Translations under genes and position numbers: made by a program
Notes under the pieces: generated by a model
Told to the model about the DNA's origin: nothing
The model's input: the letters and a program-made list of their open reading frames with translations, nothing else
Database searches by the model: none
UHGV virus genome: UHGV-0465656
Source: a virus
Reading direction: 5' to 3' (one strand)
DNA length: 39,758 nt
Part shown: positions 5,631-36,800 of the stretch, piece after piece
Position numbering within the stretch: position 1 is the first letter of the stretch
How the letters are laid out: the number at the start of each line of letters is the position of its first letter

Positions 5631-5855
5631 ATGACACACATGATCTTTCGTCATGGCGACATGAAGAAGTGGAAAGGCGTTAGCTACGACTTTGAAATCG
5701 TGAAAGCCGAAGAGCTTCAGGAATATCTGGATGCTGGCTGGTTTTCACATCCTGATGACCTTTTGAAGGATGTTGCAGAGCCAGAAGAAAAACAGCGTAA
5801 AAAGCCCGGTCGAAAACCTAAGGCGGCAGCAGATGAACCTGACAACGAAGGGTGA
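5631..5855 (+). CDS. Small hypothetical protein (74 aa, charged C-terminus)
   Basis: ATG at 5631 preceded by GGAGA; in-frame part of ORF 5583..5855; overlaps gp4 start by 23 nt. Confidence 0.4.
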
Positions 5856-6333
5856 TTTAGTTCTTGCGGCATTACGTAAGCTCGGTGTGGCATCAAATGC
5901 CACGTTAACCGATGTCGAACCGCAGTCTATGGAAGATGGCGTCAACGACCTTGAAATGATGATGGCTGAATGGCTTGGCGGTGATGCGTCACCAGGTATC
6001 AACGTTGGCTACATTTTCGCTGATGCAGATGTCGCTCCAGATCCTGGCGATGAACACGGTTTATCAAATAACGCTATCAATGCCGTCATTTTCAACCTTG
6101 CCTGCCGCATTGCTCCGGATTATGCGCTGGAAGCGTCAGCAAAACTTATAACCACTGCCAGATACGGGAAAGAGCGACTCGTCAAACTGTCTGCAATGGA
6201 CAGAGCAAAAGCCGCTAAATGTAAGTCCGGTTATCCAAACCGTATGCCTGTTGGCAGTGGAAACCAGTTGGCGAAGTGGAACGGTTGGAATTACTTCCAC
6301 CGAAAGGAACCTTGCGATAATGGGAGCGAATAA
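5833..6333 (+). CDS. Head completion / tail accessory protein gp4-like
   Basis: From ATG 5833: [33 protein letters not shown].., matching recalled P22 gp4 N-terminus; gene order. Confidence 0.8.
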
Positions 6334-7751
6334 TGCCGATTCAGCAACTTCCGCTTATGAAAGGTGTCGGCAAAGACTTTAGAAACGCTGACTATATCGA
6401 CTATCTGCCAGTGAATATGTTGGCTACACCCAAAGAAATCCTCAACAGCAGCGGATATCTTCGCTCATTCCCGGGCATTGCCAAACGTTCTGATGTGAAC
6501 GGCGTATCGCGAGGCGTCGAGTACAACATGGCGCAGAATGCTGTTTATCGCGTGTGTGGTGGCAAGCTGTATAAGGGCGAAAGCGAGGTTGGTGATGTTG
6601 CCGGAAGTGGTCGCGTATCAATGGCGCATGGTCGAACATCACAGGCGGTAGGCGTTAATGGTCAACTGGTCGAGTATCGCTATGATGGCACGGTTAAAAC
6701 CGTCTCAAACTGGCCTACAGACAGCGGATTCACACAGTACGAGTTAGGTTCAGTTCGCGACATTACGCGCTTACGTGGGCGTTATGCGTGGTCAAAAGAC
6801 GGAAATGATTCATGGTTTATCACTGACCTTGAAGACGAATCGCATCCTGACCGATACAGCGCACAATATCGTGCAGAGTCGCAGCCTGACGGCATCATCG
6901 GTATCGGCACATGGCGAGACTTCATCGTCTGCTTTGGTTCATCGACGATTGAATATTTCTCCCTGACTGGCGCAACCACCGTTGGTGCTGCTTTGTATGT
7001 CGCACAGCCATCACTAATGGTGCAAAAAGGCATCGCCGGAACTTACTGCAAAACGCCGTTTGCTGATTCCTATGCGTTTATCAGCAATCCGGCAACAGGT
7101 GCTCCGTCTGTGTATATCATCGGCTCCGGTCAGGTATCACCAATAGCCAGCGCGAGCATTGAGAAAATTCTCCGCTCCTACACTGCTGATGAACTGGCTG
7201 ATGGTGTGATGGAGTCTCTGCGATTTGATGCGCATGAGCTGCTGATTATCCATCTTCCGCGCCATGTTCTCGTGTACGACGCATCTTCAAGCGCCAATGG
7301 TCCGCAATGGTGTGTGCTGAAAACAGGCCTGTATGACGATGTGTACCGCGCTATCGACTTCATTTACGAAGGCAATCAGATAACGTGTGGCGATAAGCTG
7401 GAATCGGTTATCGGCAAATTGCAGTTCGATATCAGCAGCCAGTACGACAAGCAACAGGAACACCTGTTGTTTACTCCGTTGTTCAAAGCGGATAACGCAA
7501 GAGTGTTCGACCTTGAGGTTGAATCTTCAACTGGCGTTGCGCAGTACGCTGACCGCCTGTTCCTCTCTGCAACCACTGACGGAATCAATTACGGACGTGA
7601 GCAGATGATTGAACAGAATGAACCGTTCGTTTACGACAAACGTGTTTTGTGGAAGCGAGTCGGGCGCATCAGGAAAAATGTCGGCTTCAAATTGCGCGTT
7701 ATCACGAAGTCACCTGTCACTCTGTCTGGCGCTCAGATAAGGATTGAGTAA
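6333..7751 (+). CDS. Tail hub / head completion protein gp10-like (472 aa)
   Basis: Same length as P22 gp10; position after gp4; start overlaps gp4 stop. Confidence 0.8.
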
Positions 7752-8599
7752 TGGCGGATTCGAATCTCAATGTGCCGGTAATCATTCAGGCTACACGGCT
7801 CGACACATCAGTCCTTCCACGCAATATCTTCTCGCAGTCGTATCTGCTTTACGTTATCGCACAGGGCACTGATGTTGGTAACGTGGCTAACAAGGCCAAC
7901 GAGGCCGGACAGGGCGCTTATGATGCACAAGTCAGGAACGATGAGCAGGATGTGATTCTCGCTGACCATGAGCAGCGAATTTCTGCTGCAGAAGCAACGC
8001 TTGTTAATCATGAGGAGCGAATCAGCCAGGCAGAATCAACTCTTCAGGAACATGAAACACGAATCACTCAGAATGAAAGCGATATTGCGTCGCTTGATAC
8101 CAGAGTTCAGTCGCTGGAGTCGCAGGTTTCAGACCATGAAACGCGCATTGATGCTCTGGAGTATGCAACCACACGCAAGAAGTCAGAGGTTGTTTACTCT
8201 GGCGTATCAGTAACCATCCCGACAGCGCCGACCAACCTTGTTAGCCTGCTGAAAACGCTCACGCCGTCATCCGGGACGTTGGCACCATTCTTCGACACTG
8301 TTAACAACAAGATGGTTGTGTTCAACGAGAACAAAACCTTGTTCTTCAAGTTGTCGATTGTCGGGACGTGGCCCAGTGAAACCGCCAACAGGTCAATGCA
8401 ACTAACATTTTCCGGTTCTGTTCCTGACACACTGGTAAGCAGTCGCAACTCGGCGACAACAACCGATAACATCTTGTTAGCTACGTTCTTCAGCGTGGAT
8501 AAAGACGGCTTTCTTGCCACAAATGGCAGCACGTTAACCATTCAGTCAAATGGTGCGGCGTTTACTGCCACAACCATCAAGATAATCGCGGAGCAGTAA
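7751..8599 (+). CDS. Tail needle protein (gp26-like N-terminus, heptad coiled coil, C-terminal knob-type extension)
   Basis: N-terminus [43 protein letters not shown] matches recalled P22 gp26; repeated HE.RI heptads; 282 aa versus 233 in P22. Confidence 0.85.
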
Positions 8600-9054
8600 T
8601 GATTCAGTTCAAACCAACGCGAAACATCGACCTGATCGAAGCAGTCGGAAATCACCCTGACATTATTGCCGGGAGCAACAACGGTGATGGATACGACTAC
8701 AAACCTGATTGCCGTTACTTTGAGGTGAACGTGCACGGGCAGTTCGGCGGCATTGTTTACTATCAGGAGATTCAGCCGCTTACATTCGATTGCCACGCCA
8801 TGTACCTGCCAGAGATTCGCGGATTCAGCAAGGAAATCGGGCTGGCGTTCTGGCGATACATTCTGACTAACACCACCGTTCAGTGCGTCACATCGTTCGC
8901 TGCACGCAAATTCCGCCACGGGCAGATGTACTGCGCAATGATTGGCCTTAAGCGTGTAGGAACCATCAAGAAATACTTCAAAGGCGTGGATGACGTGACG
9001 TTTTACAGCGCCACACGCGAAGAACTAATCGACTTCCTGAATCACGGGAGATAG
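8599..9054 (+). CDS. gp14-like head-associated protein
   Basis: Position between tail needle and ejection proteins as in P22; 151 aa; assignment by synteny only. Confidence 0.5.
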   Translation: MIQFKPTRNIDLIEAVGNHPDIIAGSNNGDGYDYKPDCRYFEVNVHGQFGGIVYYQEIQPLTFDCHAMYLPEIRGFSKEIGLAFWRYILTNTTVQCVTSFAARKFRHGQMYCAMIGLKRVGTIKKYFKGVDDVTFYSATREELIDFLNHGR

Positions 9055-9056
9055 CC

Positions 9057-9749
9057 ATGTTATATGCATTTAAGCTGGGCAGAAAACTGCGCGGCGAGGA
9101 ACCTTATTGCCCTGAAAAGGGTGGGAAAGGTGGCAGTTCTGATAAAAGCGCAAAGTATGCCGCAGAAGCTCAGAAGTATGCAGCAGACCTGCAAAATCAG
9201 CAGTGGCAGACGATCATGAAAAACCTTGCTCCGTTCACGCCTCTTGCGGAGCAGTATGTTAACCAGTTGCAGAATCTTTCCAGTTTAGAAGGTCAGGGGC
9301 AGGCACTTAATCAGTATTACAACTCTCAGCAGTATAAAGACCTTGCAGGTCAGGCGCGTTACCAGAGTCTTGCTGCTGCGGAGGCGACGGGTGGACTTGG
9401 TTCGACAGCCACAAGCAATCAACTGGCTACGATCGCGCCGACACTCGGTCAGTCTTGGTTATCAAACCAGATGAGCAATTACAACAATCTGGCAAACGTT
9501 GGGCTTGGTGCGCTGCAAGGTCAGGCAAACGCCGGGCAGACGTACGCCAACAACATGAGCAGCATTGCACAGCAAAGCGCAGCACTTGCCGCTGCTAATG
9601 CCAATAAACCATCAAGTCTTCAGACTGCAATTAGCGGTGGCACGTCTGGTGCGATTGCCGGTGCAGGTCTTGCCAGCCTTTTGGGAACATCAACGCCTTG
9701 GGGCGCTGGCATTGGTGCTGGTATCGGATTGCTTGGCTCGTTGTTTTAA
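9057..9749 (+). CDS. Ejection (internal virion) protein gp7-like
   Basis: N-terminus MLYAFKLGRKLRGEEPYCPEKGGKGGSS resembles recalled P22 gp7; 230 aa; Gly/Ala-rich C-terminus. Confidence 0.7.
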   Translation: MLYAFKLGRKLRGEEPYCPEKGGKGGSSDKSAKYAAEAQKYAADLQNQQWQTIMKNLAPFTPLAEQYVNQLQNLSSLEGQGQALNQYYNSQQYKDLAGQARYQSLAAAEATGGLGSTATSNQLATIAPTLGQSWLSNQMSNYNNLANVGLGALQGQANAGQTYANNMSSIAQQSAALAAANANKPSSLQTAISGGTSGAIAGAGLASLLGTSTPWGAGIGAGIGLLGSLF

Positions 9750-9758
9750 GGGGTAATC

Positions 9759-11090
9759 ATGGCTACTTGGCAAGGAACAAACGGCGGATTGTTGGCTGGT
9801 ATCGGCGGCGTCAACTCAAACGCTCCGAGCGTAAATGACATCGGCAATACGCTTCAGCTTATCAGGCAGAACAATGATATTGAGCGTTCAGGCGCTAACA
9901 ATGTTGGGCTGACTGCTTTGCAAGGCCTTTCAGGTATTGCGGGGGTGTTTCAGCAGGAAAAGCAGGCTCAGCGGCAGAAAGAATTTCAGCAGGCATACGC
10001 TAATGCTTATGCGTCTGGTGATCGCGGTGCTTTGCGTCAGTTGGCTACTCAATATCCAGAACAGATTGAATCCGTTCGTAAAGGCATGGGATTCATTGAT
10101 GAAGATCAGCGTAATTCTATCGGCACCTTAGCGGCTGGCGCACGCCTTGCGTCATCGTCTCCAGAAGCAATGCAATCATGGCTGCAAAACAACGCCGGTG
10201 AGTTAGCTCGTGTTGGCGTTAATCCTCAGGACGTCGCTCAGATGTACCAACAGAACCCGCGGCAGTTCGGCGAATTTGTCGATCACCTGGGGATGAACAG
10301 TCTCGGACCCGAAAAATACTTTGACCTACAGGATAAAATGCAGGGTCGCCAGGTTACCATGCGCGGTCAGGATCTGGATTCGCAAACCGCCGCTCGGAAT
10401 CAGGCAATCACAATGCGCGGGCAAGATATCCAGGCGAATTTAGGTCAGCAGCGCATTAATCTGGACGCAGAAACAAACCGCATTAACAACGAAAATAAGC
10501 GCCTTGACCGGATGCTATCAGCAGAAACTAACGACCTGAAGCGCCAGGAAATACAGAGCCGCATAGCAGCCAACAACCAGCAGTTGCAGCAGAAGCAGCA
10601 AGCGCTAAATGATGGCTACAAAGACGGCATCAACACCCTCACAACCAGCATGTTCACTCTGAACGATATCGTTAGTTCTCCTTCACTTAAGAGCATTACA
10701 GGCTTACGTGGAGTAATCCCCAACGTTCCAGGCTCACAGGCTGCAGACACTCAGGCACGACTTGATACCTTTAAATCCCAAGCATACCTGACAGCGGTTC
10801 AGGCCATGCGAGGCATGGGCGCACTTTCTGATGCCGAGGGCAAAAAGCTCGACCAGGCTGTTGGTTCGCTGCAGAACTCGCAGAGCGAGGAGTCCTTTCG
10901 TCGCAACGCTGGCGTCATCCTGAACACGCTCAACCAGAAGCGTAATGAGGCGGTTGGTAAGTACGTTCAGCAAAACGGTATCAAGCGAGTGGAAGCTCCT
11001 CAGGCTTCTATAGATTACCTGAAGCAGCACCCCGAGCTGTCAATCGACTTCATTAATCGCTACGGATATCTTCCATCTTTGGGGCAGTAA
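9759..11090 (+). CDS. Ejection protein gp20-like
   Basis: Synteny (second of three ejection-protein genes); Q-rich coiled-coil composition. Confidence 0.65.
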   Translation: MATWQGTNGGLLAGIGGVNSNAPSVNDIGNTLQLIRQNNDIERSGANNVGLTALQGLSGIAGVFQQEKQAQRQKEFQQAYANAYASGDRGALRQLATQYPEQIESVRKGMGFIDEDQRNSIGTLAAGARLASSSPEAMQSWLQNNAGELARVGVNPQDVAQMYQQNPRQFGEFVDHLGMNSLGPEKYFDLQDKMQGRQVTMRGQDLDSQTAARNQAITMRGQDIQANLGQQRINLDAETNRINNENKRLDRMLSAETNDLKRQEIQSRIAANNQQLQQKQQALNDGYKDGINTLTTSMFTLNDIVSSPSLKSITGLRGVIPNVPGSQAADTQARLDTFKSQAYLTAVQAMRGMGALSDAEGKKLDQAVGSLQNSQSEESFRRNAGVILNTLNQKRNEAVGKYVQQNGIKRVEAPQASIDYLKQHPELSIDFINRYGYLPSLGQ

Positions 11091-13721
11091 ATGGCTAATT
11101 ACCGTGATTTGTTAGAGCAGGCTGGCGCACGTTACGGTGTGCCAGAAGGGTTGATGACTGCACTGGGTGCCAAGGAGTCTTCTTACAACCCTGCCGCAGT
11201 AAGCTCCGCCGGGGCTGTAGGATTGACTCAGGTCATGCCTGGGACATGGCGTGATATGGGTTATACCGATGAGCAAATGCAAAACCCCGAATATCAGGCT
11301 GACGCTGGCGCGCGCTATCTGGCAAAGATGTACCAGCAGTTTGGTAACTGGCGTGACGCTCTTCAGGCTTATCACGACGGTCCCGGCAACGTTATGAAGG
11401 CAAAGCGTGGTGAATATACGCCAGGACCTGAAGGCCGCGGTTACGTTGATGATCGCTTTGCTCAATGGGCGGGTGACCCGGTGACAGACTCAACAGTCGA
11501 ACAGCGCGCCACCTCTGCAAAGGTACATCCTCAGCAAGACCCTAACAACCCGTTTGCACAACTGGAAGTACAGTCATCCGAACAAGTATCGGCATCAGGT
11601 GTGCAGTCAGACCCAAATAATCCATTTGCTCAGATTGAGCAGCAGGCAGCCAGTCAGCAGCCACCTCAACCCGTAAGTTCTGTCGCACCGAAACCTGTTC
11701 AGCAACAAACAGTTAATCAGGCCAATAATGAACCAGCACGTGAAGAACCATCATTGATGCAACAAGCTGGCGATTGGCTCACAGGTGGTCAAAGTGCAGG
11801 GCAAATTGCAGAGCAGGCTGGTCGTGGTCTGGTAAACATACCATTCGACGTATTACAGGGCGGCGCAAGCCTGATTAATGCAATCAGTCAGGGGCTTGGT
11901 GGCCACAAGGTTTTGGATGATGTTTATCGCCCTGTCGATCGACCGACAGACCCTTACGCACAAGCCGGTGAAACAATTGGTGGGTATCTCCTGCCAATTG
12001 GCACAGCGGCAAAAGCTGCTGGAGCGACAGCAAAGCTCGCAGGAGACATCGGTTCCGCAGGAAACATGATTGCCGGTTCTCTTGCTGATGCTGCAAATCA
12101 GGAGGGTGATTTTGCACAAAATGCTGCCATTAACGGTGGTATCAATATTGGTGCTCAAGGCGTTATTTCAGGTGTCGGGCGCGTTATTGCGCCAAGGGTT
12201 TCACAGGCTCTTGGTGGTGCAGCACTGAATTCTGCTAATGATGTTTCCAGGATGGCAAAGTCAGGTGCTGGGCGTCAGTCAATTGCCAGTCAGGCCGCTA
12301 ATGTGTCCGAAGATGTAGCAAAAGCGGCTGAGTCTGCTGGAATTGATATAAACGCATTAACACCAGGAATGCGATCTGGAAGTCGTGGAATTGCACAAGC
12401 CGAAGGGATATTGGCATCCGAACCAGGAATTGTTCAGGATGCACATACTAGGGCTTTTAGTGAAATACAGTCGAAATTCCACTCAGCACTTGATGAACTT
12501 GGTGCTGAGGCTGGATCTGCATCAGAAAAAAGTGCAGCCATAAAACAAAGGGTTTTAGCAAGTATTGATAAAATGAAGAACTCAGAAAAGGCAGCATGGG
12601 ATAGCGTCCGCTCCACGATGCCTGACGCAAAGGCCAGAATGTCAAACCTGAACGCTACAATTCAGGGTGATATTTTGGCTGGCATGCCGCTAACTCCTGA
12701 GATGAAACAATTTGCATCTGCTTATGCTAAAACTGGTAAAAAAGGAATCACGTTTGATGCCATGAAGGCATGGCGAAGTAAACTTGCTGACGCTGAGCAG
12801 AAGTATATAAGGTCTGGTGAGGCAAATACGGCAAGGCGCATGGCGGAGCTTCGTGATGCAGCAACGGAAGATATGCGCATAATGGCTCAAAATGGCGGTT
12901 TTCTTGATGACTGGCAAAAAGCTAATGATCTATCAAAAGCAAGATTTACAGCACAAGAACAGGCTGAAGCAGCGTTTAGAAACCTTGCAACTGATCAGTT
13001 AGTCACTGATGGTATTAAAGCCTTGCAAAATTCATCAAAAAGTGGGACAGGAAAGTTTCATCAGATTATTGGCGCACTGCCAGAGTCTGAGCGATCTCCA
13101 GCAATTGCATCAATATTACAAGATGCGGTATCGCAAGGGGTGCGTGGCGGTAAATCAGAGTCTGCTGGCGTATTCCATATAGCGTCGATCCTTACGCCGC
13201 AGAACATTGCTGCCATTAGCAGGCACTCGCCAGAAATGGGTAAGATTGCTAGGGCATACAGCGACCTTGCCAGAGCAGCAACCAGACCACTGCGATATGT
13301 AGAGCATACGGGACGCTCTATACCGGCAATTAACTCTCTTGAGCAAGGACTGCCAAAAGCTGTCATGACAGTACTCAATGCAATAGGCAATTCAACATCA
13401 GGGGCTATTGTTGGTACCACTGGTGGAGGGATTGTTGGCGGTGTTGTGGGGGCTGTTTCTGGATCTATAGCTAAAGGGACGATAGAAAAGTTAGCTGCAT
13501 CCCGCAGTGGTCGTTACGCTATTGAAAAGGCTGTTCAAGAGGCAACAAAGGCAGTTAAGGTTGGGGCAAGTGATGGTGCATTAGCGGCGGCTGAACGCAG
13601 ATTTATGGCAAATAAGGCCGCCGTAAAAGCAATACGCGATGCAGTTGGAAACGAAGAGTTCCAGCGTTTGTCGAGGGCTGGGATTGTCGCCTCGTTAAGC
13701 GGTATGAATGAATATGAATAG
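11091..13721 (+). CDS. Ejection protein (gp16 position) with N-terminal lytic transglycosylase (SLT) domain; 876 aa
   Basis: N-terminal SLT signature [34 protein letters not shown]; DPNNPFAQ duplicated; internal AT-rich segment ~12300..13560. Confidence 0.75.
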
Positions 13722-13723
13722 CT

Positions 13724-14209
13724 TTATCTAATGTTGCTGCTACTGTTGCATGTGACGGTGTTTCCAAATCCTGAATTGCAGTTTGTATATGTGTCAACGC
13801 GTGTTGGGTAAGGTTGAGTTATAACAGGCTGGCGCGCTTTTTGCTCGATCGCTTGCATTGTGTTTACAGCCTGATAATTCAATAAAGCCTGCTGGAATGC
13901 TTGGCTTTGCGCTATTTGTTGGGCTTGTTCTTGGCTTTGTAATTGAACATAAAGATTCTGAAGCTCAAGTCTTGCCTGTGCGTCACTTATCTTGCCTTCA
14001 TCGACACCTTGCCCGAGCATCTTCGCAGCAAGGACATACAGCTTAGGTGTTGGTGCTGATGCCATGCGTGAGTCGTTCTTCACGCTGGCATCAAGGCAAT
14101 TAGCCATATCACTAAGCTTTGGATAGCGTTGTTCGCAACTTGCTTGGTAGTCACTTACTTTTGCGCATCCAGCCAGCAGAAGCGGGATAATTAACAGTGA
14201 TTTTTTCAT
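13724..14209 (-). CDS. Lipoprotein (signal peptide + lipobox LLAGC), Q-rich coiled-coil, unknown function
   Basis: MKKSLLIIPLLLAGCAK..; last gene of the mnt operon; convergent with the ejection-protein gene stop 2 bp away. Confidence 0.7.
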   Translation of the reverse strand: MKKSLLIIPLLLAGCAKVSDYQASCEQRYPKLSDMANCLDASVKNDSRMASAPTPKLYVLAAKMLGQGVDEGKISDAQARLELQNLYVQLQSQEQAQQIAQSQAFQQALLNYQAVNTMQAIEQKARQPVITQPYPTRVDTYTNCNSGFGNTVTCNSSSNIR

Positions 14210-14213
14210 ATGG

Positions 14214-14459
14214 TTAACTCTCCTTAGTTTTGCTCATGATCCCATTCATGTCTTTTGGTAGATACTTATGAATTGGCCAATCCATGAACGCAAGTGCTAG
14301 CCACGCAACCACGTTGAATCCAGGGATTGTTAAACATACCGCCATCTTCCAGTCAAAACCAGCTTTCTTAGATATTTTTAAAGCAGGTATAAAAAAGATG
14401 AAAACGAAAAAAATCACCATAATAATCAATGATAATGGCGACCCTTGTTGTTGCTCCAT
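14214..14459 (-). CDS. Small membrane protein (two predicted TM helices), unknown function
   Basis: Hydrophobic stretches LSLIIMVIFFVFIFFIPAL and VVAWLALAFMDW; AT-rich; immediately follows mnt. Confidence 0.6.
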   Translation of the reverse strand: MEQQQGSPLSLIIMVIFFVFIFFIPALKISKKAGFDWKMAVCLTIPGFNVVAWLALAFMDWPIHKYLPKDMNGIMSKTKES

Positions 14460-16227: not shown

Positions 16228-18144
16228 ATGACAGACATTACAGCTAATGTGATTGTATCGATGCCTTCGCAACTCTTCACTATGGCTCGTTCTTTTAAAG
16301 CCGTAGCCAATGGAAAAATTTATATCGGTAAAATTGACACTGACCCGGTAAATCCCGAAAACCAGATTCAGGTTTATGTGGAGAACGAAGACGGCTCTCA
16401 CGTTCCTGTTTCGCAACCAATCATCATTAACGCTGCTGGTTACCCGGTATATAACGGACAGATTGCTAAGTTCGTAACTGTGCAATGCCATTCTATGGCT
16501 GTTTATGATGCGTATGGATCGCAGCAGTTCTATTTCCCTAATGTGCTGAAGTATGACCCTGATCAACTTTCTTCGCGCTTATCATCTGATGATGGTGCTT
16601 CTTATATTTCATTTAAGAAGCCTTATGCTGATGCTGCAACCAGAAAAGCATCTGACTACTTTAATCAGGAAATTAATGTAGATGACTTTGGTGCGTATGG
16701 CGATGCCTACTTATTGAACGGAGAAGATAACCTAAGCAAGCATGACGACACACACGCATTTCAGGCCGCTCTGATTGCTGCGTGGCGTGCAGGTGGTGTT
16801 AAAGTAGTAGCCACTCCGTGGAAAAGCTATTACATCGCCGGTAAAGTTTATGTGTTGGCTTCAGAATCTCCATCTGACATTGAAGAAACTAATTTCCCTA
16901 ATCGTCGGGTGCAAGTGATCGATTTTCAGGGCGCTCGCATCGTAGGCCGCGACGATACTTCCGACGAAAATAACGTATTCATTGAGACTGGTTATATAGC
17001 TTCTAGTGGTGCTATATCTTCTGTATTTGGAAAGTCTGGTGAAGAGTATCTAACCATAGGAACAATAATTCGCAATGCCACACTGATTAATTTCTATCAG
17101 GGGTTACGTTTGCGGAATCATGTATTTGGATGCGAGGTTACAGATATTGTTGGAGTAAATGTCCAGCAGTTGGTTTACACTCAGCGCTGCTTTTACTCTT
17201 TATTTCGCAATCTTCAGTGCAATGGTACATATACTACTGGTCTGCATCGCTATCACTTTACTGATGAATGCAACATTCAGCCATTAGTATCGGTTCACAC
17301 AGGAGAGTGTGATGTAGGTTTTAAGTTTGAAGGTGCGGTAGAGGCACTTACGCTGTTCAACTGTGGTATTGAAAGTTTTCGTACTCACGGTGTTTGGATT
17401 GCAGGTGCATATAACATCAAGTTTGATTCATGCTACATAGAGTCAAACGAAAGCAATGTGTATGGGGTTATAGCAACGAGCGCAAATAACATTACGCTGG
17501 ATAACTGCTGGATTTACGGTAGCAGTATGAAAATGTTTGGTGCATTCGACGACAATACCAACGTAAGAATTATGCCTAATAACCGTATTGGAGGAGGGGC
17601 AGTTTGGTGGGACCTTAACGAAGGGTCTCCGTACAACCTTTCCGACATTCACTGGCAAACAGATATAAAACCAGGCGGTACAACACTACCTGCTGCATCC
17701 GCTAAAGAGGCCAGCACAGTAGACCAGACTATAGTTTTCTACCACCCGGATTTAGGACTTAGTTCAGTTGTAGGGAAAGCCAAACAGACCAGTAAATACC
17801 ACCCGCAGCTTGTTAACGGCAAAATGAGTAACGGTAGCTCTGCTGCACATACAGTTGGCGCAAGTGTCTCTACAGAGGTTTCAGGTTCAGACACTAGAGC
17901 AAAATGGACAACGCAAATACAATACTCTGATACACAGCTTATTTTTTTAGCATTGAAGATAGATCATAACTTGGGGACATGGTTTTGGTTAGGTGTTGTG
18001 GCAGGAGATAAAGCGATGGTTATTTCAACATCTGATGAATCAAAGACTCCGGTTATAAGTAATGAAAATGGGTTTGTCGTAGTAGAGAGTCCGCTTCTTA
18101 TGACGCCAATAAATGTTCATGGTGGAGAAATAAGATTGCTATAG
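16228..18144 (+). CDS. Tailspike protein: conserved P22-type head-binding domain (aa 1-~110) fused to a divergent receptor-binding domain
   Basis: N-terminus [60 protein letters not shown] matches recalled P22 gp9; remainder unlike P22 and AT-richer. Confidence 0.9.
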
Positions 18145-35582: not shown

Positions 35583-35906
35583 ATGAAGATGCCAGAAAAA
35601 CATGACCTGTTAGCCGCTATTCTCGCGGCAAAGGAACAAGGCATCGGGGCAATCCTTGCGTTTGCAATGGCGTACCTTCGCGGCAGGTATAATGGCGGTG
35701 CGTTTACAAAAACAGTAATCGACGCAACGATGTGCGCCATTATCGCCTGGTTCATTCGTGACCTTCTCGACTTCGCCGGACTAAGTAGCAATCTCGCTTA
35801 TATAACGAGCGTGTTCATCGGCTACATCGGTACTGACTCGATTGGTTCGCTTATCAAACGCTTCGCTGCTAAAAAAGCCGGAGTAGAAGATGGTGGAAAT
35901 CAATAA
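35583..35906 (+). CDS. S: Holin S (lambda type, dual-start S107/S105)
   Basis: [107 protein letters not shown] matches recalled lambda S. Confidence 0.95.
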
Positions 35907-36366
35907 TCAACGTAAGGCGTTCCTCGATATGCTGGCGTGGTCGGAGGGAACAGATAACGGACGTCAGAAAACCAGAAATCATGGTTATGACGTCATTGTA
36001 GGCGGAGAGCTATTCACTGATTACTCCGATCACCCTCGCAAACTTGTCACGCTAAACCCAAAGCTCAAATCAACAGCAGCCGGACGTTACCAGCTTCTTT
36101 CCCGTTGGTGGGATGCCTATCGTAAGCAGCTTGGCCTGAAAGACTTCTCTCCCAAAAGCCAGGACGCTGTTGCGCTGCAGCAGATTAAGGAACGTGGCGC
36201 TTTGCCGATGATTGATCGCGGTGATATCCGTCAGGCTATCGACCGTTGTAGCAATATCTGGGCTTCACTGCCGGGTGCTGGTTATGGCCAGTTCGAGCAT
36301 AAGGCTGACAGCCTGATTGCAAAATTCAAAGAGGCTGGCGGAGCGGTCAGAGAGATTGAGGTATGA
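35890..36366 (+). CDS. R: Endolysin R (lambda-type lytic transglycosylase)
   Basis: [53 protein letters not shown].. matches recalled lambda R. Confidence 0.95.
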
Positions 36367-36800
36367 GCAGAGTAACCGCGATTATCTCCGCTCTGGTTAT
36401 CTGCATCATCGTTTGCCTGTCATGGGCTGTTAATCATTACCGTGATAACGCCATCGCCTATAAAGAACAGCGCGATAAGGCCACATCCACAATCGCTGAC
36501 ATGCAGAAGCGTCAACGTGATGTAGCAGAACTTGACGCCAGATACACAAAGGAGCTTGCTGATGCTAACGCGACTATTGAAAGTCTCCGTGCTGATGTTT
36601 CTGCTGGGCGTAAGCGCCTGCAAGTCGCCGCCACCTGTGCAAAGTCAACGACCGGAGCCAGCGGCATGGGCGATGGAGAAAGCCCAGGACTTACAGCAGA
36701 TGCTGAACTCAATTATTACCGTCTCCGAAGTGGAATCGACAAGATAACCGCGCAGGTTAACTACCTGCAGGAATATATCAACACGCAGTGCCTGAAATGA
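36363..36800 (+). CDS. Rz: Rz i-spanin (lambda-like N-terminus, divergent C-terminal half)
   Basis: [31 protein letters not shown].. as recalled for lambda Rz, then diverges. Confidence 0.88.
36562..36747 (+). CDS. Rz1: Rz1 o-spanin lipoprotein embedded in +1 frame of Rz
   Basis: [36 protein letters not shown]..: signal peptide, lipobox Cys, Pro-rich. Confidence 0.8.

What the first reader, a model, noticed from the sequence alone, without database searches (positions are those of the whole stretch)
11091..13721. Third ejection protein is a fusion with an N-terminal lytic transglycosylase domain and a foreign AT-rich internal segment
The gene in the gp16 position encodes 876 aa (I recall about 609 for P22 gp16). 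The first ~125 aa carry an SLT signature (..[26 protein letters not shown]..). A DPNNPFAQ-containing unit is duplicated at ~11536..11640. A central stretch ~12300..13560 is clearly AT-richer and uses AGA/AGG/ATA codons, unlike the flanks. This suggests an ejected protein that also cuts peptidoglycan (conceptually like T7 gp16) and has acquired an internal module by recombination.
Basis: partly seen in the sequence, partly recalled or inferred. Interest (0 to 1): 0.6.

Follow-up and report, generated by a model that had tools for sequence, protein, structure and literature searches.

The report
Ejection protein carrying a cell-wall-cutting domain
The third DNA-ejection protein of this P22-like phage has a cell-wall-cutting (lytic transglycosylase) domain at its front end, a real but already-annotated and fairly widespread gene type, and its "AT-rich foreign segment" is an ordinary swap between versions of the same gene.

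Summary

The fusion reading is supported. The SLT head plus linker (aa 1-217) is a swappable N-terminal module joined to a P22-gp16-family body, and other alleles carry short unrelated N-termini at the same joint.

It is not new. Dewey, Huey, Sf101, IME10, Skarpretter-like phages, 70 of 5426 complete E. coli genomes, and Serratia, Pectobacterium, Tatumella and Shimwellia prophages have the same architecture, usually annotated as a transglycosylase. Reviews, however, still say P22-like gp16 lacks this domain.

The "foreign AT-rich module" is only partly right. A block (12192-13623) is 100% identical to an SLT-less prophage allele and diverges from Dewey over 12407-13577, so recombination is real. 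But the block is homologous gp16 sequence. All alleles share the low GC, about half the shift comes from amino-acid composition, and the block's GC is ordinary for this genome.

Peptidoglycan cleavage during DNA entry is inferred, not shown.

The parts
11091..13721 (+). Gene-16-position ejection (E) protein gene, 876 aa plus stop: SLT head, linker and P22-gp16-family body
   Evidence: ORF. PHROG 21143 covers aa 1-425 and phrog_770 'DNA transfer protein' covers aa 108-834. Dewey's 875-aa 'DNA transfer protein' and Sf101's 911-aa 'transglycosylase' start identically.
11091..11480 (+). SLT (family-1 lytic transglycosylase, lysozyme-like) catalytic domain, aa 1-130. The catalytic Glu29 codon is at 11175-11177. 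Motifs: [18 protein letters not shown]
11481..11741 (+). Predicted disordered Gln/Pro/Ser-rich linker, aa 131-217. It ends at the module joint with the gp16 body
   Evidence: pLDDT <50 over aa 133-237. Composition Q18 P13 A12 (percent). IME10 identity ends at 11708; UMNK88/HK620 identity begins at 11742.
11538..11561 (+). DPNNPFAQ motif, copy 1 (aa 150-157)
   Evidence: Conserved as DPDNPFAQ in the Shimwellia homolog P0006.
11610..11633 (+). DPNNPFAQ motif, copy 2 (aa 174-181). It differs from copy 1 at 6 synonymous sites only
11742..11972 (+). Most conserved gp16 segment, aa 218-294 ([41 protein letters not shown]...[11 protein letters not shown]), shared by all gp16 types including P22
   Evidence: tblastn to P22 gene 16 gives 67.7% identity over protein aa 221-375, E=2e-46. 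Mean identity to distant SLT-less representatives is 59% in this segment.
11973..12227 (+). Gly/Ala-rich, weakly hydrophobic, low-confidence segment, aa 295-379
   Evidence: pLDDT <50 over aa 295-377. Hydropathy peaks at aa 296-314 and 349-367.
12228..13304 (+). All-alpha-helical core of the gp16 body, aa 380-738. It has no solved structural relative.
13305..13475 (+). Low-confidence segment, aa 739-795, containing the most hydrophobic stretch of the protein, a Gly-zipper-like [19 protein letters not shown] (aa 771-789, nt 13401-13457). Candidate membrane-inserting element
   Evidence: Kyte-Doolittle maximum of 1.53. pLDDT <50.
13476..13718 (+). C-terminal helical segment, aa 796-876, conserved at the very end among alleles
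   Evidence: pLDDT 62-82. Identity to all alleles rises again after about 13578.
12192..13623 (+). Recombinant allelic block: 100% identical to the SLT-less TW10573 prophage gp16, and 58-76% identical to Dewey over 12407-13577
   Evidence: Mismatch maps and sliding identity. GC is 0.461, the same as the homologous block in Dewey, HK620, Sf101 and UMNK88.
9759..11090 (+). gp20 homolog (443 aa), the upstream partner E-protein. It belongs to the same inherited block as the SLT head
   Evidence: Pfam Inj_translocase E=3.8e-68. Window 8599-11708 is 98.6% identical to IME10 as one block, while HK620 and UMNK88 lose similarity over 9773-11741.
9057..9749 (+). gp7 homolog (230 aa), the first E-protein
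   Evidence: Pfam P22_gp7 E=1.8e-134.

Best explanation
This is the gene-16 ejection protein of a P22-like (Lederbergvirus-type) E. coli phage, in its SLT-headed form. It has three functional parts: an N-terminal family-1 lytic transglycosylase (aa 1-130, catalytic Glu29); a disordered Gln/Pro-rich linker carrying two DPNNPFAQ motifs (aa 131-217); and the P22-gp16-family body (aa 218-876), made of a conserved junction segment, Gly/Ala-rich segments, an all-helical core and a Gly-zipper hydrophobic stretch.

Inferred mechanism. The protein is packaged in the head with gp7 and gp20 and expelled through the tail at infection. In the periplasm the SLT head cuts the MurNAc-GlcNAc bonds of peptidoglycan locally, which lets the gp7/gp20 conduit reach the inner membrane. 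The body then acts at the inner membrane for DNA passage, as proposed for P22 gp16. Functionally this is the T7 gp16 arrangement built on a different, P22-type body.

Evolution. The head-plus-linker is a swappable module. Other alleles carry short unrelated N-termini joined at the same point (aa 217/218), and the head is inherited together with the adjacent gene 20.

The 3' AT-richer part is not foreign. It is the normal composition of gp16 bodies in all alleles. In this genome it happens to coincide with an allelic recombination block (12192-13623) that is identical to an SLT-less prophage allele.

Shown: domain identity, fold, catalytic residues, architecture, synteny, distribution, breakpoints and composition. 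Inferred: virion packaging, ejection, enzymatic activity and its role in entry.
For: SLT identity and intact active site.

The SLT head is the best-conserved part among distant SLT-type homologs, at 53% mean identity against 22% in the core. That fits selection on an enzyme.

E-protein identity of the body: direct homology to P22 gene 16; near-identical relatives carry precomputed Pfam PF26808 Phage_P22_gp16; the gene order gp14-gp7-gp20-[this gene]-immI-like genes-tailspike is P22-like.

The same SLT-plus-body architecture, in the same gene order, occurs in Dewey, Sf101 and IME10, a Shimwellia prophage, a 31%-identical metagenomic P22-like contig and Skarpretter. At least 15 distinct 50%-identity clusters have it.

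A separate holin-endolysin-Rz cassette exists at 35583-36800, so the SLT head is not the phage's endolysin.

T7 gp16's N-terminal SLT aligns at the same N-terminal position (E=9e-4) and is the top Foldseek hit (7k5c_B). In T7 this domain is needed for genome internalization when peptidoglycan is highly cross-linked (review PMC8954989).

Module joint and recombination block. Family-wide composition.
Against: There is no experimental evidence for this protein or any close relative. In the searchable library I found no zymogram, virion proteomics or mutant data for SLT-type P22-like gp16.

Most P22-like phages, including P22, Sf6, HK620 and CUS-3, lack the head and infect normally, so it cannot be generally essential. 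P22 virions are already credited with a muralytic activity in gp4 (review PMC5380687), and this phage has a gp4 homolog at 5770-6333.

The order of ejection and the topology of gp16 are unsettled even for P22 (PMC10883804).

The structure model for aa 133-377 and 739-795 is unreliable.
Confidence: 0.75

Rival explanations
1. The AT-rich stretch 12300-13560 is a foreign, non-gp16 module inserted into the gene by illegitimate recombination.
For: GC drops from 0.528 to 0.463 and AGA/AGG/ATA codons cluster there. Breakpoints against Dewey lie near the same coordinates.
Against: The block aligns colinearly, with the same length, to the homologous part of every gp16 allele. Dewey's divergent version has the same GC. 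Sf101, IME10 and HK620 show the same step and the same AGR pattern. The block's GC is at the 30th percentile of this genome. About 55% of the step is due to amino-acid composition. The block is the predicted helical core of the protein, not an add-on.
Confidence: 0.03
2. The SLT head is not an active enzyme in infection. It serves as a peptidoglycan-binding anchor or a structural or packaging domain, or it is a dispensable passenger kept by linkage to gene 20.
For: Most P22-like phages do without it. gp4 may already supply muralytic activity. The head travels with gene 20 as one block, so linkage alone could maintain it over short time scales.
Against: The catalytic Glu and both substrate-site motifs are invariant or nearly so in 18 homologs, down to about 23-31% overall identity. 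The head is the most conserved region of those proteins. That is not expected for a passenger or a mere binding module.
Confidence: 0.12
3. The SLT domain acts late in infection, helping lysis or remodelling the wall for assembly or release, rather than at entry.
For: SLT domains occur in some endolysins; PHROG 669 'endolysin' matches weakly.
Against: A complete holin/endolysin/Rz cassette lies elsewhere. The domain is covalently fused to an ejection-protein body, within the virion-gene operon, in all relatives. There is no signal peptide or SAR-like N-terminus: the protein begins directly with SLT helix 1.
Confidence: 0.05
4. The 876-aa ORF is an artefactual or recent read-through fusion of two genes, a small SLT gene and a gp16 gene.
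For: Stand-alone ~200-aa SLT proteins are the closest non-phage relatives of the head.
Against: The same continuous ORF occurs in independent isolates and genomes (Dewey, Huey, Sf101, IME10, 67 E. coli genomes, Shimwellia, Serratia, Pectobacterium, Skarpretter), at identities from 99% down to 27%.
Confidence: 0.01

Closest known systems
SLT-headed gp16 of P22-like phages and prophages: Escherichia phages Dewey and Huey ('DNA transfer protein', 875 aa), Shigella phage Sf101 ('transglycosylase', 911 aa), IME10 (unannotated 797-aa ORF), and RefSeq 'lytic transglycosylase domain-containing protein' in 70 complete E. coli genomes
   Same: The head and linker are identical in arrangement and 99-100% identical in sequence. 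The gene position after gp7 and gp20 is the same. Dewey is 99% identical up to nt 12406.
   Different: The C-terminal body is a different allele, identical to SLT-less prophage alleles over 12192-13623. No database protein exceeds 83% identity over the full length. Sf101 and IME10 have different body types beyond about aa 300.
SLT-less gp16 of HK620, UMNK88 and TW10573 prophages, and P22 gp16 itself (609 aa)
   Same: The body is homologous: 98-100% to UMNK88/TW10573, 86% to HK620, and 67.7% to P22 over aa 221-375. Synteny and presumed role in DNA delivery at the inner membrane are the same.
   Different: These proteins carry short (~40-65 aa) unrelated N-termini in place of the 217-aa SLT head and linker.
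T7 gp16 (internal virion protein D; PDB 7k5c, 7eyb)
   Same: It is the third, largest ejection protein and has an SLT lytic transglycosylase at the extreme N-terminus followed by an extended linker. Weak but specific sequence similarity (E=9e-4, aa 3-112 against 11-126) and the top Foldseek hit. Its function as a virion-borne peptidoglycan cutter during entry is established for T7 (PMC8954989, PMC5380687).
   Different: No detectable similarity beyond the SLT head. Size is 1318 aa against 876 aa. Hardies et al. treat T7 IVP-D and P22 gp16 as alternative proteins that are never found together (PMC4819975). The head is closer to bacterial Slt70 (E=8e-11) than to T7 gp16.
E. coli Slt70, Pseudomonas Slt, MltE and MltC catalytic domains (GH23 family-1 lytic transglycosylases)
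   Different: Those are housekeeping periplasmic or lipoprotein enzymes with their own targeting domains. Here the domain has no signal peptide and is fused to a phage ejection protein.

Membership tests
SLT / family-1 lytic transglycosylase (Pfam PF01464, GH23) | Profile match above the curated threshold | tested here: met
   88.3 bits against a 21.3-bit cutoff, E=3.4e-25, aa 7-110.
SLT / family-1 lytic transglycosylase (Pfam PF01464, GH23) | Single catalytic Glu in the E-S motif, plus the GLMQ-like and AYNxG-like motifs | tested here: met
   E29-S30 aligns with Slt70 E478-S479. GLTQVMP and AYHDGPGN are present. All are conserved in 18/18 homologs.
SLT / family-1 lytic transglycosylase (Pfam PF01464, GH23) | Lysozyme-like alpha-helical fold | tested here: met
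SLT / family-1 lytic transglycosylase (Pfam PF01464, GH23) | Non-hydrolytic cleavage of MurNAc-beta1,4-GlcNAc giving 1,6-anhydroMurNAc | not testable with these tools
   Needs an enzyme assay and muropeptide analysis.
P22 gp16 family of ejection proteins (Pfam PF26808 Phage_P22_gp16) | Sequence homology to P22 gp16 and the family profile | tested here: met
   tblastn to P22 gene 16 gives 67.7% identity, E=2e-46. Relatives that are 83-99% identical carry precomputed PF26808. The model is absent from the local Pfam and NCBIfam copies, so the window protein itself could not be scored directly.
P22 gp16 family of ejection proteins (Pfam PF26808 Phage_P22_gp16) | Position as the third gene of the gp7-gp20-gp16 cluster, downstream of gp26/gp14 and upstream of the immI region and tailspike | tested here: met
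   Compare P22 and HK620.
P22 gp16 family of ejection proteins (Pfam PF26808 Phage_P22_gp16) | Packaged in the virion, ejected at infection and required for DNA delivery; membrane association | not testable with these tools
   Only hydrophobic Gly-zipper-like segments are seen. Needs virion proteomics, ejection assays and genetics.
T7 gp16 / internal virion protein D family | N-terminal lytic transglycosylase domain | tested here: met
   phmmer to 7eyb_I/7k5c gives E=9e-4, aa 3-112 against 11-126. The top Foldseek hit is 7k5c_B.
T7 gp16 / internal virion protein D family | Homology of the large C-terminal body to IVP-D | tested here: not met
   The PHROG 342 match stops at aa 241. No PDB sequence or fold match of aa 218-876 to T7 gp16. 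The literature treats the two as alternatives (PMC4819975). So it works like T7 gp16 but is not a member.
Phage endolysin of a lysis cassette | Located with holin and spanin genes and exported at the end of infection | tested here: not met
   Holin is at 35583-35906, endolysin (phrog_90) at 35890-36366 and Rz at 36363-36800, all elsewhere in the window.

The most novel reading that the evidence does not exclude
The duplicated short motif N-[P/I/V/F/M]-F-[A/E/D]-[Q/E]-[F/I/L] may be a functional signal that governs deployment of the enzymatic head. Here it appears as DPNNPFAQL and DPNNPFAQI after the SLT head. In distant homologs one copy sits at residue 3 and one directly after the head, bracketing SLT or, in P0261, an unrelated ~100-aa domain. 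It could be a docking site for the gp20 conduit, analogous to the 'molecular tape' after the SLT domain of T7 gp16, or a processing site that releases the head into the periplasm. If so, the motif-bracketed head would be a general, exchangeable 'cargo slot' at the N-terminus of P22-type third ejection proteins. The SLT-headed form might then be the older state, linking P22-type and T7-type ejectosomes.
Probability: 0.2. Interest if true: 0.55.

Novelty: new member of a known kind. Interest (0 to 1): 0.3.

Why it matters
Short-tailed phages must get DNA across the peptidoglycan layer. T7 does this with a lytic transglycosylase on its third ejection protein. For P22-like phages the textbook view is that gp16 lacks such a domain (PMC8954989 says so explicitly) and that neck protein gp4 is the only virion-associated lysin (PMC5380687).

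This locus and its many relatives show that a sizeable minority of P22-like phages carry an intact SLT head on gp16. The head is interchangeable with short non-enzymatic N-termini on otherwise near-identical bodies. That gives a natural isogenic system for asking when a virion-borne peptidoglycan cutter pays off, for example by swapping heads, mutating E29, and testing cold or stationary-phase hosts. It would also allow mapping of gp16-gp20 interactions.

This is a correction and refinement of current summaries, not a new biological principle.

Tried and rejected
- A word-indexed homolog search with the 217-aa head returned mostly stand-alone ~200-aa SLT proteins and fragments. It missed the known full-length relatives and was uninformative about architecture. 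The exhaustive representative search and tblastn against phages replaced it.
- NCBIfam and the local Pfam copy have no gp16-body model, so family membership rests on P22 homology and precomputed PF26808 on near-identical relatives.
- The repeat finder did not report the DPNNPFAQ duplication, because the copies differ at synonymous sites.
- Casjens & Thuman-Commike 2011 is the key paper on E-protein mosaicism and may already describe SLT-type gp16. It is not held in the library, so I could not check it. Four further literature searches found no experimental work on SLT-type P22-like gp16.
- I tested whether gp20 type co-varies with presence of the SLT head. It does clearly only within the close Escherichia/Shigella/Shimwellia group and is not convincing for distant SLT+ phages. 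Physical linkage could explain it, so I list it only as noticed.
- P0108 (862 aa) looked like another head type. It is a gp20 C-terminus fused in frame to a gp16 body and is probably a gene-call or assembly artefact.
- Searches were script errors or time-outs and were repeated correctly.
Full report
**Context.** The window is a P22-like (Lederbergvirus-type) E. coli phage genome. Upstream of the finding lie a gp4 homolog (5770-6333), gp10, an Sf6-type tail needle with knob (7751-8599), gp14 (8599-9054), gp7 (9057-9749) and gp20 (9759-11090). Downstream lie small minus-strand genes, an Arc-like repressor, an antirepressor, a tailspike with a P22 head-binding domain (16228-18144) and an integrase. 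A holin/endolysin/Rz cassette sits at 35583-36800. The closest deposited genomes are the Escherichia phages Dewey, CurroJimenez, Louie and IME10, at 45-55% coverage and 94-97% identity.

**Observation check.** All four observations are real.
- *ORF length.* ORF 11091-13721 encodes 876 aa. P22 gene 16 is 609 aa.
- *Repeat.* DPNNPFAQ occurs at nt 11538-11561 and 11610-11633. The two copies are identical as peptides and differ at six synonymous positions, so selection acts on the peptide.
- *Composition.* GC is 0.528 before 12300 and 0.463 within 12300-13560. 23 of the 29 AGA/AGG/ATA codons fall in that stretch, and AGR/Arg is 0/14 before 12195 against 15/32 after (p=0.0015).

**Anatomy.** The model and the comparisons divide the protein as follows.

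| Residues | Feature |
|---|---|
| 1-130 | SLT head |
| 131-217 | Disordered Gln/Pro-rich linker carrying the two motifs |
| 218-294 | Most conserved gp16 segment ([12 protein letters not shown]...[10 protein letters not shown]), shared even with P22 gp16 (67.7% identity over aa 221-375) |
| 295-379 | Gly/Ala-rich, low-confidence segment |
| 380-738 | Confident all-helical core |
| 739-795 | Low-confidence segment containing the most hydrophobic stretch, [19 protein letters not shown] (aa 771-789) |
| 796-876 | C-terminal helices |

**The fusion is modular.**
- *Shared left block.* Window 8599-11708 (gp14, gp7, gp20 and the first 618 nt of this gene) is 98.6% identical to IME10. Window 8597-11989 is 97.7% identical to Sf101.
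- *Switch to SLT-less alleles.* From 11742 the gene is 97.6% identical to the 718-aa SLT-less gp16 of the UMNK88 prophage. From 11772 it is 98% identical to the TW10573 prophage allele.
- *Joint.* At the protein level the body starts at [13 protein letters not shown] (aa 218) in all of them. The SLT-less alleles carry unrelated N-termini of about 40-65 aa, of at least three types.
- *Linkage to gene 20.* HK620 and UMNK88 lose similarity from about 9773 to 11741, so gene 20 and the gp16 head form one inherited block.

**Distribution: the architecture is known and widespread.**
- *Deposited phages.* Dewey and Huey (875 aa, 'DNA transfer protein'), Sf101 (911 aa, 'transglycosylase'), IME10 (an unannotated 797-aa ORF) and APC_JM3.2 carry the identical head.
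- *E. coli genomes.* 70 of 5426 complete E. coli genomes carry the head at 99% identity or better, named 'lytic transglycosylase domain-containing protein' by PGAP. By comparison, 670 genomes match some part of gene 16.
- *Diversity.* An exhaustive search of 1.84 billion representatives finds at least 15 distinct 50%-identity clusters of 850-1033-aa proteins with an SLT head and a gp16-like body. Named sources include Serratia, Pectobacterium and Tatumella prophages, and Shimwellia from the first homolog search. All 18 SLT-type sequences aligned score for Pfam SLT, and none of the 11 SLT-less ones do.
- *Synteny in distant relatives.* A 31%-identical metagenomic member and the Shimwellia member both sit in gp7-gp20-[SLT-gp16]-tailspike order. 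So does the 977-aa 'transglycosylase' of Skarpretter.
- *Salmonella.* A Salmonella Lederbergvirus paper lists an LT-domain protein next to its ejection proteins without comment.
- *This allele.* The exact allele here is new only as a recombinant. No database protein exceeds 83% identity over the full length.

**Conservation argues for an active enzyme.** The catalytic Glu, GLxQVMP and AYxxGxGN are conserved in 18/18 SLT-type homologs. Among the 14 distant ones the head is the best-conserved region, at 53% mean identity against 22% in the helical core.

**The 'foreign AT-rich segment'.**

*Comparative data confirm a recombination block.* Against Dewey there are 12 mismatches in 11091-12406, dense divergence over 12407-13577 (58-76% identity in 150-nt windows), and about 91% identity thereafter. 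Window 12192-13623 is 100% identical to TW10573.

*Composition is not evidence of foreignness.*
- The homologous block has GC 0.462 in Dewey, 0.473 in HK620, 0.467 in Sf101, 0.458 in UMNK88 and 0.486 in IME10.
- In every allele the AGR codons are confined to the C-terminal body.
- The block's GC is at the 30th percentile of this genome, while the 5' half of the gene is at the 97th.
- GC3 is already low from about 11540 onward.
- With codon usage held at that of the upstream virion genes, amino-acid composition alone predicts 0.036 of the 0.065 GC step. The synonymous AT shift grows gradually along the gene: -0.024, -0.045, -0.058, -0.073, -0.062.
- The 'AT-rich' block is the folded helical core, which follows Ala/Gly/Gln/Pro-rich disordered sequence.

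*Most parsimonious history.* TW10573 similarity continues through the downstream gene to 14216. The simplest account is a crossover between 12166 and 12407 joining a Dewey/Sf101-like left arm to a TW10573-like right arm, plus a small third-source patch at 13624-13682. This is the pervasive mosaicism already described for genes 16 and 20 of P22-like phages (PMC10883804).

**Mechanism (inferred).** The model rests on three precedents:
- T7 gp16, whose N-terminal SLT is needed when peptidoglycan is highly cross-linked (PMC8954989).
- The list of virion-associated lysins in PMC5380687.
- What is known of P22 gp16: membrane association and a functional pairing with gp20 (PMC10883804).

On that basis the protein would be packaged, ejected, and would use its SLT head to open the peptidoglycan mesh locally for the gp7/gp20 conduit, while the body acts at the inner membrane.

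It works like T7 gp16 but is not a member of that family. Similarity stops at the head, and Hardies et al. treat the two bodies as alternatives (PMC4819975). Because most P22-like phages lack the head, and gp4 may supply muralytic activity, the head is probably conditionally beneficial rather than essential.

[quoted passage not shown] A 2017 review lists only gp4 as the P22 virion-associated lysin. The databases contradict the first statement for a minority of P22-like phages. I could not read Casjens & Thuman-Commike 2011, which may already catalogue this type.

**Unexplained extra.** A related motif, N-Φ-F-[AED]-[QE]-[FIL], occurs in two copies in distant homologs. There it brackets the head: MANIFDQFD, MANPFAQFD, MANVFDQFD or MANMFAEF at residue 3, with a second copy at aa 171-192. 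The recurrence of the N-terminal 9-mer beats 299-300 of 300 shuffles in five proteins. In P0261 the pair brackets an unrelated ~100-aa domain with no Pfam match. This suggests a motif-delimited cargo slot. Its function (docking, processing or recombination joint) is open.

**Verdict.** The fusion interpretation is supported. The 'foreign module' interpretation is supported only in the sense of allelic recombination. The gene is a new recombinant member of a known, annotated but under-discussed kind, and interest is modest.

Noticed in passing
window 11538-11561 and 11610-11633; homologs P0258, P0261, P0263, P0264, P0265, P0273, P0278: A short motif, N-[PIVFM]-F-[AED]-[QE]-[FIL], is always present in two or more copies. 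In the window type the copies are tandem after the SLT head. In distant homologs one copy is at residue 3 and one directly after the head. In P0261 the pair brackets an unrelated ~100-aa domain with no Pfam hit (GNIDIHNRPIVKNPDGSISTVRS...). The function is unknown.
   Followed up: partly
window 13724-14209 (-) and 14214-14459 (-): At the position where P22 carries sieA, immediately downstream of gene 16 on the opposite strand, this phage has a 161-aa lipoprotein-like gene (MKKSLLIIPLLLAGC...; phrog_6067, unknown function) and an 81-aa membrane protein (phrog_32536, unknown function). The first travels with the TW10573-type 3' end of gene 16 (98% identity over 11772-14216). These are candidate superinfection-exclusion or moron genes.
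   Followed up: partly
window 9773-11741 (gene 20 plus the gp16 head): Gene 20 and the gp16 N-terminal module behave as one mosaic block. The C-terminal half of gp20 is 77% identical in the SLT+ Shimwellia prophage but only 23-24% identical in SLT-less P22, HK620, CUS-3 and epsilon34. Distant SLT+ phages show only 27-31%. This fits the reported need for matched gp16/gp20 pairs, but plain physical linkage could also explain it.
   Followed up: partly
window 13624-13682: A roughly 60-nt patch differs from TW10573 at 12 positions, and Dewey differs from the window at 11 of those same positions. UMNK88 differs in this patch at a largely different set of positions. This is fine-scale mosaicism from a third source near the 3' end of gene 16.
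   Followed up: no
window 35890-36366 (+): The 158-aa gene between the holin and Rz has no Pfam hit at E<=1e-3 but matches PHROG 90 'endolysin' at 2e-63. It is presumably the phage's real endolysin.
   Followed up: partly
window 7751-8599 (+): The tail needle is the Sf6 type, with a C-terminal knob (Pfam Phage_tail_NK, E=1e-116), unlike the knobless needles of P22, HK620 and Dewey (702-nt genes).
   Followed up: no
protein P0108 (862 aa, a Logan assembly): A gp20 C-terminal region is fused in frame to a gp16 body in place of any N-terminal head. This is probably a gene-call or assembly artefact, though a natural gp20-gp16 fusion is not excluded.
   Followed up: no
literature: PMC8954989 and PMC5380687: Reviews state that the gp16 transglycosylase is absent from P22-like phages and list only gp4 as the P22 virion-associated lysin. 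Database annotations (Sf101 'transglycosylase', PGAP 'lytic transglycosylase domain-containing protein', Skarpretter 'transglycosylase') show that a subset of phages with P22-type virion modules does carry it.
   Followed up: yes
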